Assembly (NCBI RefSeq): GCF_002113885.1 | Contig: NW_018408703.1 | Span: forward strand, 746,036-810,035 | Source: Mizuhopecten yessoensis | Taxonomy: Eukaryota | Reading direction: 5' to 3' | Length of the DNA stretch: 64,000 bases | Part shown: positions 38,513 to 62,500 of the stretch, one piece after another | How positions within the stretch are numbered: the first letter of the stretch is position 1 | Layout of the letters: the number at the start of each line of letters is the position of its first letter | Position numbers: made by a program

Positions 38513-41500
38513 NGAACATATTAATTAAATTAAAAGAGCTATGGCGGAAAACTGCCCGTATTTCCCTAAGTCGGCAGTTTTGGAAACGGAAAAAAATACT
38601 GATGAGTAAATAACTTGAAGTAGCGAACATGCATGGAATATATATAAAACCAATTGAATATGAATTTTTGAACTGTTGAGATATTCGGTATTGTTAATAT
38701 AATACTGCAAATATAGCCATATTCACTATATCTATGAAAGTGACGGGGTTTCCCAGACTTATTTTTTTATTGATATCTAAATAACATACATATTGGTTTA
38801 TTTTCTATGGAATCATGTCAACACATCCCTGTACGCGTGTACAGGACAGTCATACGCTTTGTAGGTACATGTAAGACATCATTTAAATGATATTTATGAA
38901 TTGTTTTACCCTCCAACTGGCACTAGTATTCTAATCCATTAATCCAGGAAGACTGCAGCACAAAGTAAAGAACGCAATACACGTGTAAGATATGCTTTTC
39001 GAAAATTATGTAATTTTACCATTCTAAGGAAGAACAAAATCAAGATGTGTACTTTTTAGGAAAGCGGGTAACAGCATGACTTTGGCAGTAGTAATGATAA
39101 TTAAATTCTTTCAAACTTGTTGGTAATGATTGTACGATCTTGTGTTTACGCAAAATAAGCATTTTGTTGAGTCTTTATCGGGAAACGTATATATTAATAG
39201 CCATGACCTTAAATTCGTCCGTTTAAAATAGTCTATTCTTAGACACGGGATTCCGTTAGAGCTACCTGTATACAAATACCTGAGGACGCGTCATAGCAAT
39301 GCACGGTTGGACGCGCGCACTAGCGGGTTATAACTTTGGGGAAATAGGCATAGCAACCCGCCATAGCCCTTTGCCATCTTGTATATCTATAAATTAATTT
39401 GTTATTGGGAAAGGGCAACTTGTGTCCATTCCCTTTTATATGATTCAAATCTACACTATAGATACTTAATTTTCGAACGCAAAGATGTATAAGTCTCCGA
39501 AAAAAAACCCGTCCTAACTGTACATTTAATGTTAATATTTTTATCCGTCTGATTTATCCGTTAACTGGAACAGCATTCCCTATACGTTCCTTCATTAGTG
39601 TCTCAGTCGTTAACGCTTGTCAGGTAGCCAGACTACGTGTCAGTGACAAGCTCAAACGATGTAACAAGTTGTCAGATGGCGTAACAAGCTGTGATGACGT
39701 AACAGAAACACAAAAGTAACGTAGAAAAGCCAAGCCAATTTTGCAAGTAGACCAACAGTAATTAAGTTCTTAATATTTTATTGTCAAAATTGTTTCGCGG
39801 AAGATAAGGCCACGTGCACGTTTTACGAATCTTCCAGTCCTCTTAAAAAATAAACATGTACGTGATTACAATACAAACCAAACAATTTTAAGATAATTAA
39901 TACTGGGAATGAAATATCATTTAAAAAAAGGAATCATAATTAAGAGAAGGAAAAAAAAGAGATCGAGATATTGTTCAGAAAAATATTTGACAAAGCTAAC
40001 ATGACTGGTACGGCCCCTGTATGTCACGACACGTCAGTATGGATATATATTTCTCTCATTTCAGCCACCAGAATAAGCTTAGAAACTATGAAAATGCGTT
40101 TGGACTTGCCACCATTTTGAAACTATCAATTTTCCCCCTGAACTTTTTAGACGAAAACGAATTAGCCAGCCGTATTAAGCATTTTCCAAATTCCACACGA
40201 GGGTTTTTCAAATTTGGTAAAACCCGAGGCATTGCCAAGGGTTTTGCCAAATTTGAAAATCCCGAGAGTGGAATTCCCTATCCTACACATGAAAGAGTAT
40301 TTTTCTATCATTTCCCTGAGTGTAAGATAGAGCTGTCCAAGGTAAAAACTTTACTAGGACAGCAGCTGTTTTTACGGGTTTTAGGTAATAAGCAAGAAAT
40401 AGAATCCATCCCTGATGTGAGGTAAGGATAAGGTTATTCAAACCCTCGGGATAAAATATTGAGCAAAAGACCATCGGGTCTCCTGCTCAATATTTTATCC
40501 CTTATGTTTGAATAACCTTATCCATACCACACATCAGGGATGGATTCTATTATTCTCGCACATCAGACAGAGATATCCCAATATCATAATATAAGAATTT
40601 GATGAATATATATATATAATTGTGGAGTAATGCTTAATAGTATGTACATTTATGACACAAAAGTATTGATATTTATAGATACATAAGGAAAAAAATATTA
40701 GGCCGTCATACGAATTCTTCGTCTGGTATGTCAGCCATTAAACTTAGCATCCGTTGAAATTTCTAAAAACAAAACATTTTAAAGTACAATTTTTGCATTT
40801 CATATGATTAAAATTCAGGAAAATAGCCGTTTCAAGCATTTACAATATATATGTAATTGTAATTTTATTAAAAGGAGCCTTAGAAAGCATTTTTAAGCGG
40901 GTCTGTGTTCAGCTTACAATATGGCGCCTGTTCCAAACCTGTGCTTTTATGTCTCGATTGAATCGCATTTTTATCGATATTAGAGAATATAAGTATATAT
41001 GTTTGATACATCATAGGAAAGAAAAATATTAATTCTTTACTTTAATGTAACAAAAGTATTAGCTGTAAATGTAATTTTATTAAAAAGGAGCCTTAGAAAG
41101 CATTTTTAAACGGGTCTGTGTTTAGCTTACAATATGGCGCCATTTCCAAACCTGTGCTTTTATGTCTCGATTGAATCGCATTTTTATTGATATTAGAGAA
41201 TATAAGTATATATATTTGATACATCATAGGAAAGAAAAATATTACTTCTTTACTTTAATGTAACAAAAATATTAGCTGTAAATGTATGTATATGTAAGTT
41301 TTACATCTGTACATAAAATTCACCATCATCAAATCAAAATATCGGTAGAAAATGATTCGAATACACTATTCTCCCCAAATTTTGACATTTTTGCTTTTCA
41401 TAAATAAGATCTTTAAATAAAATGCTTTAATATCGCTGTAACTAAAATATTGTAGGGTTTGTAACGAATGAACTGTATACGATTGAAGTAAGGTAAGAAA

Positions 41501-59500: not shown

Positions 59501-62500
59501 TGAGTGAAATGAGAACGGGTATATATAGTATTTTTTTGCTCTATGTACGTATCTGCCAAATGTTTCAGATGAAGTATTCCGGTTTAAAGAACTGAATTAA
59601 AACCATACAGCATTTATCTATGTATGTGTGTGCGCTAATATGTCACTCATGTCAGGAATCTGACACATTCCTTGTCTGGTAAGCCATGACGTAATCAGTC
59701 CCGACTCCCGGGGCTACAACCTGCGTCCGGTCCATTAATATCCGGTAGTCGTCTGATCTATAGTCCCCGAGGGAACTGACATACTGACGTCACACGCACC
59801 CACATACACACCGGTACGATCGAGACGTCTCGTTTAAATATCACCGCGTGATTTATCCAGTTATGTGTTGCAGGCAAGAAAATGTATCTATTTACCCACA
59901 ACAGAAATTCTTAAAAGAATGAAATATTGATTGCTAAACACGTTGGATAATGTGTTAAAATTTATCAAAATAATGTCGAAAAAGAACACTTCTTCTTCGA
60001 AGCAATTTTGAACATGACAACTTTTCGACATGATCAAACGAAGATATATTCGGCAATATTAACATTTAAAGGCGATGGTTACAAATGACGTGCATCATGT
60101 TTCGTTGTATATAACTGAAACATTATCATAATATCACAATAATGATTGCGAGAACGCCATAGTTTGTTCGTGAATTTCGTCCTCAGTTCAGTTAATTCCC
60201 GAGAGCCGTTCGACTCGTGTTAAATGTCAAACAATAACACCATGTAATACACGTACAAGAGATTATCATACAAATTTAAACTAATTATGTGGAGGGTTAG
60301 CTTACAAAGTACATTTCCATATCAGACATTGATTTCTCTAATTTTCTCGTAGCACAATATAAACACTTTCCGAGAATACATAATTCATTTACATTATTAG
60401 TACGTAATAATTTCGTTAACTTAAAAACAGGACTTCTGTGATAAAATCGCTTGATATATTTACGTCTCAGGTCTTGATATAATGGATATTTAGGATGAAG
60501 TGAAATTCATCTTCTATATCACCAGAAGCACATCGAGTACATGATCTATTCTGTCGAACAACGTTGTTCCGTCTACCCACTACAATATTTAAGTTATGAG
60601 ACGACAATCTAAAACTTGTAATAAGACATGTGTTCTATCAATAAGGTGCTGGTATAAATAACCTTTAAATGACATGTTAAAAGCTTTGGTAATTTAGGAC
60701 GCGTCCGGTTTTAGTGACAGAGGGAGGTCGGTGAACGATAAACAAACGACCAGTGCGTGGCGATTGATCCATGTGGGACTCGAACCCGCGACCCAGTGGT
60801 GGAGGGCCAGTGATCATAAATGGAAGATGCCTTACAATCGCCTGAAGCCAAAGTAAATAGATAGTAAATAACTGAAAAAGAATTACTTGATCCTTTAACA
60901 AAATTTGTTTAGTATCAACACGGACTTGGATAGCTAGTTCCGTGGCATCAAGTTAAAATAATAAAACAGAGTTCTATAAGAATAATTTAATTGTCCTAAA
61001 ATAATTCAAATTGTTACAGTTTGAGGCGTTTTTAAAAAACCGAATTAAAGTTAATGTTAATATACAATTTTTAATTGAAGTTTGTTTGTAAATATATAAT
61101 AGATACAGCACGAATCCCTCATACAAGGGTGCTAGTAGCTTACATTTCAAGAATGATATCCGTTTCATATACACCCCATCTTTTTGGTGGTGTTTTTAGA
61201 TGCCGCGAGGACCTTAAGGTGGCTCCAAACATCGTCATCAGCGTCCATTTTCGTGACGTACTTCCGGAAAAAGTCCAGCTCGGACTCAATTATCTTGATC
61301 GAAATGTGCATGTACACCGTGTCGTCATTTCCGTATTGCGTATCGGGCATTCAATATCGTAGTGCAAATTATAGTAACACCTGGGCCGTTTTCGTTTAAA
61401 CGGTCAAATCGATCGGACCACTGTTGTTCGTTTATTAAATAAGGTCGGACCTAGTAATCTGATGCTGCTTTCAGGCGAGTCTTGAGAAAGACTTGCAAGG
61501 CCTGCATACACATTTGCAGGTCCGCCAGGATTTATACCCTAAATTGTTACATTTATAAACGGTCAAACCGATTGTTCCGCATAAACGAACAGGCCCCTTG
61601 TAAACAATAGTACACATGCGTGCCGATATGTTAACACCCGATAATCACACGTCCTTCAGGAATAAAGCTTTCCAATTCATAGACATAAACAGACTCACGG
61701 GAACACAGTGTCATGAGACCAGACGACCTCAAGAAGGTCATATAGGAAACACATGGAATGCGGACGTACCGACCTCGCATGTGCATATCACGCGCTTACA
61801 CGAGTTCATAAGCTCGATGTCGTTACGATTTTCGCTGTAAATCGTGTTTACGAATGTAGTCTGCTTACTCTGTTAAAATAATGTTTTGTAAAATATAAAG
61901 ATACCTATGAAATACATGTGTGAGTGCACGTGAGAACGGCATACCATGCGATAGCCTCTGGTCACATATGTACCTGAAATGTAATTATAAATATACCGTG
62001 AGTTAGCGGACTCTGGAATGATGTCGAAAGTGTACATGACTGAGGGTAATTTGTTTCCATTAAAGAACAATAAATTGATAATTTTTTGATATCATATTTT
62101 TGATTTATTTCGATCATTTTTGTTATATGTAAACAGAGACAACTGGCATTGTGTAAATGTCATCCCTCTGCAAAAAGTTCCGATTTTTTTCGAAAAAGAT
62201 AACTCTCACCCGGATCAAAGTGATTGTAAAATGTAAAATAAAATAATTATAGAGCCATTGTGTATATTTTGTTCGATTTCCCATTCTATATGTATAGATC
62301 TTTGTGTCCTGTTTGCTTTTAGCTTGTAGATAATCACTTTTATCCGTACAAATTCAATAAAAAACACTTTGTGTAACATGTGTTACATATTTTGCGACAA
62401 ATAAAATATTCGTAGGGTTAATAAGAAATGCTTCTTTTCATTTTATTTTTGTTGTTATTGTTCCGAACAATGATACACACAAAAAAAACCGGAAAGTATT

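What the first reader, a model, noticed from the sequence alone, without database searches (positions are those of the whole stretch)
40583..60360. H1-only tandem gene array with long TE-built spacers
Seen: three intact H1 genes, periods 9.7 and 7.5 kb, with no H2A/H2B/H3/H4 anywhere in the window. Copies differ by 10-12 aa, each has private substitutions, yet all are exactly 185 aa while the spacers are full of indels. Known: canonical H1 usually clusters with core histones, and mussels have separate orphon H1 clusters. Inference: an independently amplified specialised linker-histone family evolving by birth-and-death, possibly germline- or embryo-specific.
Basis: partly seen in the sequence, partly recalled or inferred. 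Interest (0 to 1): 0.65.

Follow-up and report, generated by a model that had tools for sequence, protein, structure and literature searches.

The report
Small tandem array of H1 genes
Three diverged but still selected copies of a linker-histone H1 gene sit in a tandem repeat away from any core histone gene, an arrangement already described in mussels and other animals, so the finding is real but ordinary.

Summary
Three intact 185-aa H1 genes lie on the + strand (41647-42204, 51315-51872, 58809-59366), 9668 and 7494 bp apart. Each has a full linker-histone domain. The window shows no other H1 copy and no core histone.

The genes sit in whole-unit tandem repeats that stay collinear through the spacers: 40584-50437, 50438-57929, and a third unit cut off at 60360. 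There is no assembly gap inside the array.

Each gene carries the signals of a replication-dependent histone gene. These are an H1-box-like motif, a TATA-like box, a CATTCT cap motif, and a histone 3' stem-loop 45-46 nt after the stop, with no AATAAA.

Selection is visible but moderate. 19 of 36 coding changes are silent against 23% expected (p=1e-4, omega about 0.3). There are no indels in the CDS against 7.7 expected.

The globular domain scores nearer to H1.0/H5 than to vertebrate somatic H1.

"TE-built spacers" is only partly true, and "germline or embryo-specific" has no support in the sequence. H1-only tandem clusters and birth-and-death evolution of H1 are already in print. Verdict: a new member of a known kind, of low interest.

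The parts
40584..50437 (+). Repeat unit 1 (9854 bp): H1 gene plus spacer
   Evidence: Self-blastn shows it collinear with unit 2 from 40584/50438 onward, and its tail 49124-49852 matches 56773-57515. The left edge of homology at 40584 is sharp. Length.
50438..57929 (+). Repeat unit 2 (7492 bp)
   Evidence: 50047-52935 matches 57514-60360, and 50438 onward matches 40584 onward.
57930..60360 (+). Repeat unit 3, partial (2431 bp). Homology stops sharply at 60361, the point equivalent to 43243 in unit 1 and 52936 in unit 2.
   Evidence: Whether a large insertion interrupts it or the array ends here cannot be seen, because the window ends at 64000.
41647..42204 (+). H1 gene copy 1, 185 aa
   Evidence: ORF. 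PF00538 E 5.3e-25. 10 private changes, 4 silent and 6 replacement.
51315..51872 (+). H1 gene copy 2, 185 aa
   Evidence: ORF. PF00538 E 3.7e-26. 12 private changes, 6 silent and 6 replacement.
58809..59366 (+). H1 gene copy 3, 185 aa
   Evidence: ORF. PF00538 E 6.2e-25. 14 private changes, 9 silent and 5 replacement.
42244..42289 (+). Histone 3' stem-loop and downstream purine-rich stretch, copy 1
   Evidence: Rfam RF00032, 33.0 bits (cut-off 34), E 3.4e-6. Stem AGCCCTTTTCAGGGCT at 42249-42264.
51912..51957 (+). Histone 3' stem-loop, copy 2
   Evidence: RF00032, 33.0 bits, E 3.4e-6. Stem at 51917-51932.
59407..59452 (+). Histone 3' stem-loop, copy 3
   Evidence: RF00032, 34.3 bits, above the cut-off. 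Stem at 59412-59427.
41495..41605 (+). Promoter region of copy 1: AAGAAAACACA (H1-box-like) at 41495-41505, TAAATAG at 41574-41580, GCATTCT cap-like motif at 41599-41605. It lacks 13 bp that are present in units 2 and 3.
   Evidence: The motif consensus sequences are recalled. No transcription data.
51148..51273 (+). Promoter region of copy 2: AAGAAAACACA at 51148-51158, TAAATAG at 51240-51246, CCATTCT at 51267-51273
58642..58767 (+). Promoter region of copy 3: AAGAAAACACA at 58642-58652, TAAATAG at 58734-58740, CCATTCT at 58761-58767
47552..49123 (.). 1572-bp non-autonomous TIR transposon private to unit 1. The 8-bp target-site duplication AAGGCTAT lies at 47544-47551 and 49124-49131.
   Evidence: Inverted terminal arms, with 25 of the first 30 nt matching. 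Unit 2 has the empty site with a single AAGGCTAT.
54888..55463 (-). Non-LTR retrotransposon endonuclease fragment. It lies inside the block 54859-55479, which is not homologous to the unit 1 block 45183-45956.
   Evidence: PF14529 E 4.2e-14 and PF03372 E 1.5e-10. Block limits.
46109..46386 (.). 66-bp minisatellite: 4.2 copies in unit 1, 2.2 copies in unit 2 at 55630-55775
   Evidence: TRF.
40852..41286 (.). 213-bp tandem duplication (2.0 copies, 95% matches) upstream of copy 1, private to unit 1
   Evidence: TRF, self-blast, and a 212-column gap in the three-way alignment.

Best explanation
This is a short tandem array of at least 2.25 units (three genes) of replication-dependent-type linker histone H1 genes. 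It belongs to an animal genome in which H1 is not part of the local core-histone repeat.

Origin (inferred). A segment of roughly 7.5 kb that contained one H1 gene was duplicated as a whole, twice and close together in time. This probably happened by unequal crossing-over or replication slippage.

Later history (shown). The units have since drifted apart by about 4-8% and have not been homogenised. They picked up private changes: a 1572-bp TIR transposon, a 213-bp local duplication, minisatellite copy-number changes and a retrotransposon fragment. These account for most of the 9.85 kb versus 7.49 kb difference in unit length.

Coding regions (shown). The CDSs have been kept open and under purifying selection. 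Omega is about 0.3 overall, about 0.2 in the globular domain and about 0.4 in the C-terminal tail.

Expression (inferred from motifs, not shown). Each gene is read from its own promoter, made of an H1-box-like element, a TATA-like box and a cap motif. Its mRNA ends at a histone stem-loop processed through SLBP and U7, so expression is expected to be tied to S phase.

Function (inferred from family membership). The proteins are ordinary Lys/Ala/Pro-rich H1s. Their winged-helix globular domain binds the nucleosome at the linker DNA, and that domain resembles H1.0/H5 more than vertebrate somatic H1.
For: - Three intact ORFs with complete PF00538 domains.
- Whole-unit collinearity, spacers included, with sharp outer boundaries.
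- No N run inside the array. The only N runs are at 7274-7500 and 38513.
- Histone stem-loop RF00032 at 33.0, 33.0 and 34.3 bits, 45-46 nt after each stop. No AATAAA within 800 nt.
- AAGAAAACACA occurs 3 times in 64 kb, only upstream of the three genes, against 0.15 expected. TAAATAG and CATTCT are conserved at -73/-75 and -48.
- 36 polarised CDS changes, of which 19 are silent against a neutral expectation of 23% (binomial p=1.2e-4).
- 0 indels in the CDS against 7.7 expected from 31 events in 2235 non-coding columns (P=4e-4).
- NG86 dN/dS is 0.21-0.36.
- Private branch lengths are 10, 12 and 14.
- The TIR element has a target-site duplication, and unit 2 keeps the empty site.
- Globular domain alone: 49.4-58.4 bits to H1.0/H5 chains, about 40 to H1.2/H1.3/H1.4, 39.4 to chicken GH1.
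- Published precedent for H1-only tandem repeats, in passages of PMC4106214 and PMC13525598.
Against: - There are no expression data, so S-phase expression and promoter use are inferred from motifs alone. The H1-box, cap and downstream-element consensus sequences are recalled, not taken from a tool.
- Two of the three stem-loops fall 1 bit below Rfam's cut-off. The first stem pair is A-U, where the family consensus has G-C.
- For copy 1 alone the excess of silent changes is not significant (4 of 10, p=0.18). Copy 1 also lacks 13 bp between the H1-box-like motif and the TATA-like box, so it could be a decaying copy.
- Omega of about 0.3, with CDS divergence close to flank divergence, is loose for a histone.
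- An ATTAAA lies 230-238 nt after each stop, so some polyadenylated transcripts cannot be excluded.
- Core histone genes could lie just outside the window. Only 3.6 kb is visible on the right.
Confidence: 0.75

Rival explanations
1. A specialised H1 subfamily (germline-, oocyte- or embryo-specific, or an H1.0-like replacement histone). It was amplified on its own and is evolving quickly under relaxed or diversifying selection.
For: - It is separate from core histones in the window.
- The globular domain scores 9-19 bits nearer to H1.0/H5 than to vertebrate somatic H1.
- Omega of about 0.3 and 10-12 aa differences between neighbouring copies are high for a histone.
- Position 76 of the globular domain differs in all three copies: N, S and G.
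Against: - All three copies have the stem-loop and lack AATAAA. Vertebrate H1.0 mRNA, by contrast, is polyadenylated (PMC6027317 passage).
- An H1-box-like motif is present in each promoter.
- The proteins have 0-1 Arg, with SPKK and TPKK sites, and are not arginine-rich.
- Silent changes are in excess, which points to purifying selection rather than diversifying selection.
- An H1.0-like globular domain is described as general for the 'orphon' H1 lineage of protostomes (reference titles and a passage in PMC3380720), so it does not mark a special function.
Confidence: 0.15
2. An assembly artefact: allelic haplotigs, or collapsed or expanded repeats, wrongly joined head to tail, so that the true copy number is lower.
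For: Pairwise divergence of 4-8% with many indels could be reached between alleles in very heterozygous marine invertebrates (general knowledge, not tested here). Read depth could not be examined.
Against: - There are three units, not two.
- There is no N run or scaffold gap anywhere in 40584-60360.
- The three copies are about equidistant: 22, 24 and 26 CDS differences.
- The junction sequence 50047-50437 / 57514-57929 occurs at both internal junctions.
- The units differ by discrete events such as a transposon insertion with a target-site duplication.
Confidence: 0.05
3. Decaying duplicates: one functional gene plus recently dead copies whose open frames survive by chance.
For: - CDS divergence is about equal to near-flank divergence.
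- Absence of stop codons alone is not significant: P=0.09-0.19 for 36 neutral changes.
- Copy 1 alone shows no significant constraint (p=0.18) and has a 13-bp promoter deletion.
Against: - The excess of silent changes is significant overall (p=1.2e-4), and separately in copy 2 (p=0.039) and copy 3 (p=0.0012).
- There are 0 indels against 7.7 expected.
- The stem-loop, the H1-box-like motif, the TATA-like box and the cap motif are intact in all three copies.
Confidence: 0.05

Closest known systems
Mytilus H1-only tandem clusters (Drabent et al. 1999 J Mol Evol 49:645; Eirin-Lopez et al. 2002, 2004). I saw these only as cited and summarised in passages of PMC4106214.
   Same: H1 genes are repeated in tandem on their own, apart from the core histone repeats. 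The genes are intronless single-exon H1 genes with a 3' stem-loop.
   Different: - Only three copies are visible here, the spacers are long (7.5-9.9 kb) and the copies are diverged. Mussel clusters are large enough to be seen by FISH.
- The mussel 'orphon' H1 genes are reported to carry a polyadenylation signal as well (PMC6210712 passage). Here there is no AATAAA within 800 nt, only ATTAAA at +230-238.
- No 5S rDNA is interspersed.
- The source organism of the window is unknown, and no sequence comparison with mussel H1 could be made.
The 'orphon' / H1.0 lineage of animal H1 (H1.0, avian H5, sea-urchin H1-delta, replication-independent H1 of bivalves), from PMC3380720 passages
   Same: The gene lies away from core histones. 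The globular domain scores best against H1.0/H5 among solved structures (49.4-58.4 bits against about 40 for H1.2-H1.4).
   Different: - These genes have stem-loops and no AATAAA, which is the replication-dependent type of 3' end. H1.0 is polyadenylated.
- They are tandemly repeated, not solitary.
- The globular domain has 3 extra residues relative to H5 in the alignment.
- Membership of the clade was not tested by a tree.
Canonical quintet histone repeats with H1 (sea urchin, Drosophila, Hydractinia), from PMC13525598 and PMC5011920 passages
   Same: The gene anatomy is the same: a single exon, a TATA box, a 16-nt stem-loop with a purine-rich downstream stretch, and no poly(A) signal.
   Different: There are no H2A, H2B, H3 or H4 genes in the unit. 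The copies are diverged rather than near-identical. There are a few copies rather than hundreds. The unit is mostly spacer.

Membership tests
Linker histone H1/H5 (Pfam PF00538) | Winged-helix globular domain matching the family profile above the curated cut-off | tested here: met
   All 3 copies score 87.7-91.6 bits against a cut-off of 22.4, covering profile positions 1-74 of 74. 24 PDB H1/H5-family chains match at E<=1e-3.
Linker histone H1/H5 (Pfam PF00538) | Tripartite build: a short N-terminal tail, a globular domain, and a long Lys/Ala/Pro-rich C-terminal tail | tested here: met
   The globular domain is residues 24-98 and the tail is 99-185. Composition is 30-31% Lys, 37-38 Ala and 16-17 Pro, with SPKK at 136 and TPKK at 158.
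Replication-dependent histone genes | 3' stem-loop (RF00032) close behind the stop codon instead of a poly(A) signal | tested here: met
   Scores are 34.3, 33.0 and 33.0 bits against a cut-off of 34, E 1e-6 to 3e-6, 45-46 nt after the stop. There is no AATAAA in 800 nt, and ATTAAA lies at +230-238. Two copies are 1 bit under the curated cut-off.
Replication-dependent histone genes | Intronless gene with its own TATA-type promoter, plus an H1-box for H1 genes | tested here: inconclusive
   The ORF is uninterrupted. AAGAAAACACA, TAAATAG and CATTCT are conserved upstream of each copy, and the 11-mer occurs 3 times against 0.15 expected. The consensus sequences are recalled, and the papers I read name the H1 box without giving its sequence. 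No CCAAT box was found.
Replication-dependent histone genes | S-phase-coupled, non-polyadenylated mRNA | not testable with these tools
   No expression data.
H1-only tandem cluster ('orphon' H1 organisation, as in Mytilus) | H1 genes repeated head to tail with no core histone gene in the unit | tested here: met
   Three same-strand units are collinear through the spacers. 0 of 150 spacer ORFs of 44 aa or more hit a core-histone family, and there were 0 motif hits.
H1-only tandem cluster ('orphon' H1 organisation, as in Mytilus) | Both a stem-loop and a polyadenylation signal in the 3' region (reported for mussel orphon H1) | tested here: not met
   The stem-loop is present. There is no AATAAA within 800 nt, only the weaker variant ATTAAA at +230-238.
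H1.0 / H5 / H1-delta clade | Groups with H1.0 in a globular-domain phylogeny | not tested
   There is only a score comparison against solved structures: H1.0/H5 49.4-58.4 bits, somatic H1.2-1.4 about 40.
H1.0 / H5 / H1-delta clade | Replication-independent, polyadenylated mRNA from a solitary gene | tested here: not met
   The 3' end is of the stem-loop type, and there are three tandem copies.
Sperm nuclear basic proteins of the PL-I type | H1-like globular domain with arginine-rich tails (recalled definition) | tested here: not met
   0, 1 and 0 Arg in the three proteins.

The most novel reading that the evidence does not exclude
The three genes are a young, lineage-specific H1 subfamily that joins an H1.0-like globular domain to replication-dependent gene signals. 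The copies are beginning to take on different roles, for example stage- or tissue-specific use. Signs of this would be the replacement changes on the globular domain (positions 36, 40, 67, 69 and 76, with position 76 different in all three) and the promoter differences (a 13-bp deletion and a 213-bp duplication in unit 1).
Probability: 0.12. Interest if true: 0.4.

Novelty: new member of a known kind. Interest (0 to 1): 0.2.

Why it matters
It adds one more case to the known pattern in which invertebrate H1 genes leave the core-histone repeat and form their own tandem clusters. It also gives a clean small example of H1 paralogs diverging without homogenisation while staying under purifying selection, which is birth-and-death rather than concerted evolution.

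For annotators of this genome the practical points are these:
- All three are probably real genes with histone-type 3' ends.
- Gene finders that expect poly(A) signals may mishandle them.
- The array may be longer than the window shows.

No new mechanism or open question hangs on it.

Tried and rejected
- Frame-wise Pfam scan of a whole spacer. The tool does not accept translations that contain stop codons, so I scanned sets of stop-to-stop ORFs instead (and 27/28). This misses domains split over frames and ORFs shorter than 44 aa.
- Two Pfam calls on 20 hand-picked ORFs gave one hit, RVT_1 at 36606-36995.
- Biopython's YN00 estimator gave dN/dS of 0.96-1.78, against NG86 at 0.21-0.36 and LWL85 at 0.21-0.35. 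I set YN00 aside because the direct count (19 silent and 17 replacement, against a neutral 23:70 split) agrees with NG86 and LWL85. The disagreement still stands as reported.
- A full-text search for four peptides of the protein found 0 papers, so neither the organism nor a published sequence was identified.
- I asked whether unit 3 is an older outgroup. It has 78 private changes in the 3' part against 25-27 for the others. The excess is confined to one gappy stretch, 59943-60260, so I did not read it as a tree signal.
- I asked whether synonymous divergence exceeds spacer divergence. It is 0.148 per silent site (95% interval 0.089-0.232), against 0.072-0.149 in non-coding DNA. This is not distinguishable.
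- The ESM Atlas was not used, because its description excludes known families and taxonomy.
- Structure and complex prediction were not used, because the family assignment is unambiguous.

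
Full report
**What is there**

The window holds three ATG-to-stop ORFs of exactly 185 aa on the + strand, at 41647-42204, 51315-51872 and 58809-59366. The start-to-start distances are 9668 and 7494 bp. Each matches the Pfam linker-histone domain over its whole length: residues 24-98, profile 1-74 of 74, 87.7-91.6 bits against a cut-off of 22.4. A tblastn of copy 2 against the window finds these three and nothing else of note; the next hits have E>2 and fall in a minisatellite. The proteins differ at 12, 10 and 11 positions, and the CDSs at 22, 24 and 26 of 558 nt.

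**No core histones in view**

- Of the 207 stop-to-stop ORFs of 60 aa or more, I scanned the 150 longest (65 aa or more). None matched a core-histone family. The families found were Linker_histone (3 ORFs), CFAP91 (3), a reverse transcriptase, an endonuclease and some weak matches.
- Four short core-histone motifs, recalled from memory, gave 0 hits in six frames at up to 2 mismatches.
- A whole-window Rfam scan at E<=0.05 found only the three stem-loops behind the H1 genes, plus one weak miRNA-like match. It found no 5S rRNA. ARAGORN found no tRNA.
- The window reaches 40.6 kb to the left of the array but only 3.6 kb to the right.

**Architecture**

Self-comparison shows that the repeat is of whole units, not of genes dropped into unrelated DNA.

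- Unit 1 is 40584-50437 (9854 bp) and unit 2 is 50438-57929 (7492 bp). They are collinear through the spacers, with blastn pieces of 88-95% identity.
- Unit 3 (57930-60360) matches both until homology stops abruptly at 60361, the point equivalent to 43243 and 52936.
- The left edge at 40584 is equally sharp.
- Whether unit 3 is interrupted by a large insertion or the array ends there cannot be seen.
- The only N runs in the window are 7274-7500 and 38513, so the array is gap-free sequence.

**Why unit 1 is longer**

Discrete events account for about 2.4 kb, close to the 2362-bp difference in unit length.

- A 1572-bp element at 47552-49123 has imperfect terminal inverted repeats (25 of the first 30 nt match) and an 8-bp target-site duplication, AAGGCTAT. 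Unit 2 keeps the empty site.
- A 213-bp tandem duplication lies at 40852-41286.
- The 66-bp minisatellite has two more copies in unit 1: 4.2 against 2.2.
- There are insertions of about 140 bp and 194 bp.
- One block differs outright between the units: 45183-45956 against 54859-55479.

**Are the spacers built of TEs?**

Only partly. The differing block in unit 2 holds a non-LTR retrotransposon endonuclease fragment (54888-55463, minus strand). Among 150 spacer ORFs of 44 aa or more, that fragment is the only one with a TE-type domain. A short dispersed repeat shared with the CFAP91 region also occurs in units 1 and 2 (5634-5693 against 54139-54198 at 90%). No repeat library was available, so non-coding TEs are undercounted.

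**Gene signals**

All three copies carry the same stem, AGCCCTTTTCAGGGCT, 45-46 nt after the stop.

- Rfam's histone 3' stem-loop model scores them 33.0, 33.0 and 34.3 bits against a cut-off of 34 (E 1e-6 to 3e-6).
- The stem occurs nowhere else in the window, even at 2 mismatches.
- Its first pair is A-U where the family consensus has G-C.
- No AATAAA occurs within 800 nt downstream. ATTAAA lies at +230 to +238.

Upstream, AAGAAAACACA lies at -152/-167 from the ATG. It occurs 3 times in 64 kb, only in front of the three genes, against 0.15 expected. TAAATAG lies at -73/-75, and G/CCATTCT at -48. I read these as an H1 box, a TATA box and a cap site. Those consensus sequences are recalled; the papers I read name the H1 box as an H1-specific promoter element without printing it (passages of PMC12240685 and PMC6027317). 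Copy 1 lacks 13 bp between the H1-box-like motif and the TATA-like box.

**Selection**

I polarised changes by majority rule on the three copies. That gives 36 CDS changes, 10, 12 and 14 per copy, of which 19 are silent and 17 are replacements, with no stops.

- Under neutral mutation with the spectrum of the flanks, 23% would be silent, 70% replacement and 6% stops. The excess of silent changes has p=1.2e-4.
- This corresponds to omega of about 0.30 overall, 0.20 in the globular domain and 0.41 in the C-terminal tail.
- NG86 and LWL85 give 0.21-0.36. Biopython's YN00 gave 0.96-1.78, which I regard as unreliable here but report.
- Per copy the excess is significant for copy 3 (p=0.0012) and copy 2 (p=0.039), but not for copy 1 (4 of 10, p=0.18).
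- The three-way shared block has 31 indel events in 2235 non-coding columns and none in the 558 CDS columns, where 7.7 were expected (P=4e-4).
- The absence of stops alone would not be significant (P=0.09-0.19).
- CDS divergence (3.9-4.7%) is close to that of the near flanks (3.0-6.8%), so nothing suggests recent gene conversion.

Together this points to purifying selection of moderate strength with independent divergence of the copies.

**Which kind of H1**

Among solved structures, the globular domain alone scores 49.4-58.4 bits against H1.0 and H5 chains. It scores about 40 against human H1.2, H1.3 and H1.4, 39.4 against chicken GH1, 29 against H1.1 and 21 against H1x. This is a score comparison, not a tree.

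Passages of the nomenclature paper PMC3380720 state that H1.0, avian H5, sea-urchin H1-delta and the replication-independent H1 of bivalves are held to share one origin. Its reference list cites a paper titled on the prevalence of an 'orphon' H1 lineage in protostomes. An H1.0-like domain in an invertebrate H1 that lives apart from core histones is therefore expected.

The 3' end here is nevertheless the replication-dependent type, whereas H1.0 mRNA is polyadenylated (PMC6027317 passage). Mussel orphon H1 genes are reported to carry a poly(A) signal as well (PMC6210712 passage). The proteins have 30-31% Lys, 0-1 Arg, one SPKK and one TPKK. That composition does not look like arginine-rich sperm proteins, a comparison I make from memory.

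**Surroundings**

- CFAP91 exons lie on the minus strand at 8445-8681, 7885-8154 and 6724-6957. They cover Pfam profile positions 1-39, 35-98 and 97-130 in order.
- A LINE reverse-transcriptase fragment lies at 36606-36995.
- Three sub-threshold matches were seen: DDE_Tnp_4 at 16235-16441, Methyltransf_7 at 28373-28660 and ELO at 28679-28915.
- The array therefore sits in ordinary gene-poor, repeat-bearing DNA, not inside a large histone repeat.

**Comparison with what is known**

Passages of PMC4106214 summarise that in Mytilus edulis the core histone repeat is independent of the H1 genes, which are themselves tandemly repeated (Drabent 1999; Albig 2003). They also report that H1 and core clusters map to different chromosomes in four Mytilus species. 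The 2026 survey PMC13525598 lists mussels, Podocnemis turtles and trypanosomes as cases of separate H1 clusters. PMC12153100 speaks of frequent loss of H1 from the histone repeat unit in bilaterians. Birth-and-death evolution with purifying selection is the published model for H1 (Eirin-Lopez 2004, as cited in PMC6210712). I saw these papers only as passages found by term search, and I did not read the primary Mytilus papers.

**Left open**

- Expression, read depth and true copy number were not tested.
- The organism is unidentified. A full-text search for four peptides of the protein found 0 papers.
- Paper supplements were closed and may already list this locus.

**Verdict**

This is a new member of a known kind, of low interest.

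Noticed in passing
window 6724-8681, minus strand (probably extending to the left end of the window): Three exon-like ORFs match Pfam CFAP91 in order. 8445-8681 covers profile 1-39 (E 8e-16), 7885-8154 covers 35-98 (E 1e-26), and 6724-6957 covers 97-130 (E 2e-6). This is a cilia/flagella protein gene more than 30 kb left of the H1 array. An N run (7274-7500) lies in one of its introns.
   Followed up: partly
window 47552-49123: A 1572-bp non-autonomous DNA transposon with imperfect terminal inverted repeats and an 8-bp target-site duplication, AAGGCTAT. It inserted into unit 1 after the duplication, and the empty site is preserved in unit 2 near 56773. The 8-bp duplication would fit a hAT-type element, which is a recalled rule. 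The superfamily was not tested.
   Followed up: partly
window 35728-37772, + strand: Degraded non-LTR retrotransposon. One ORF (36606-36995) matches RVT_1 at E 3.7e-9, and neighbouring ORFs in other frames look like the rest of the same element.
   Followed up: partly
window 26415-26922: A 27-bp-period tandem repeat (self-matches 92-96% identical) is open in several frames and gives a spurious DUF6470 match. It is low-complexity DNA, not a gene.
   Followed up: no
window 5562-5816, 7113-7261, 44451-44619, 54139-54198: A short dispersed repeat (66-90% identity between copies) is present in the CFAP91 region and in the same place in H1 units 1 and 2. It was therefore in the spacer before the units duplicated. 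It may be a SINE or a MITE.
   Followed up: no
window 60361-64000: Sequence to the right of the array has no match to units 1 or 2 and no Pfam domain among its ORFs of 44 aa or more. It is either a large insertion into unit 3 or the true right flank of the array.
   Followed up: partly
window 16235-16441 (+), 28373-28660 (-), 28679-28915 (-): Sub-threshold Pfam matches to DDE_Tnp_4 (E 5e-4), Methyltransf_7 (E 2e-5) and ELO (E 1e-4). All are below the curated cut-offs. They may be relics or exons of something, or chance.
   Followed up: no
window 41647-42204 and the two other H1 CDSs: Silent-site divergence in the CDS (0.148 per silent site on the three-copy tree, 95% interval 0.089-0.232) is about twice that of the near flanks (0.072). 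It is within the range of the more distant spacer (0.083-0.149). The counts are too small to say that the genes mutate faster than their surroundings.
   Followed up: partly
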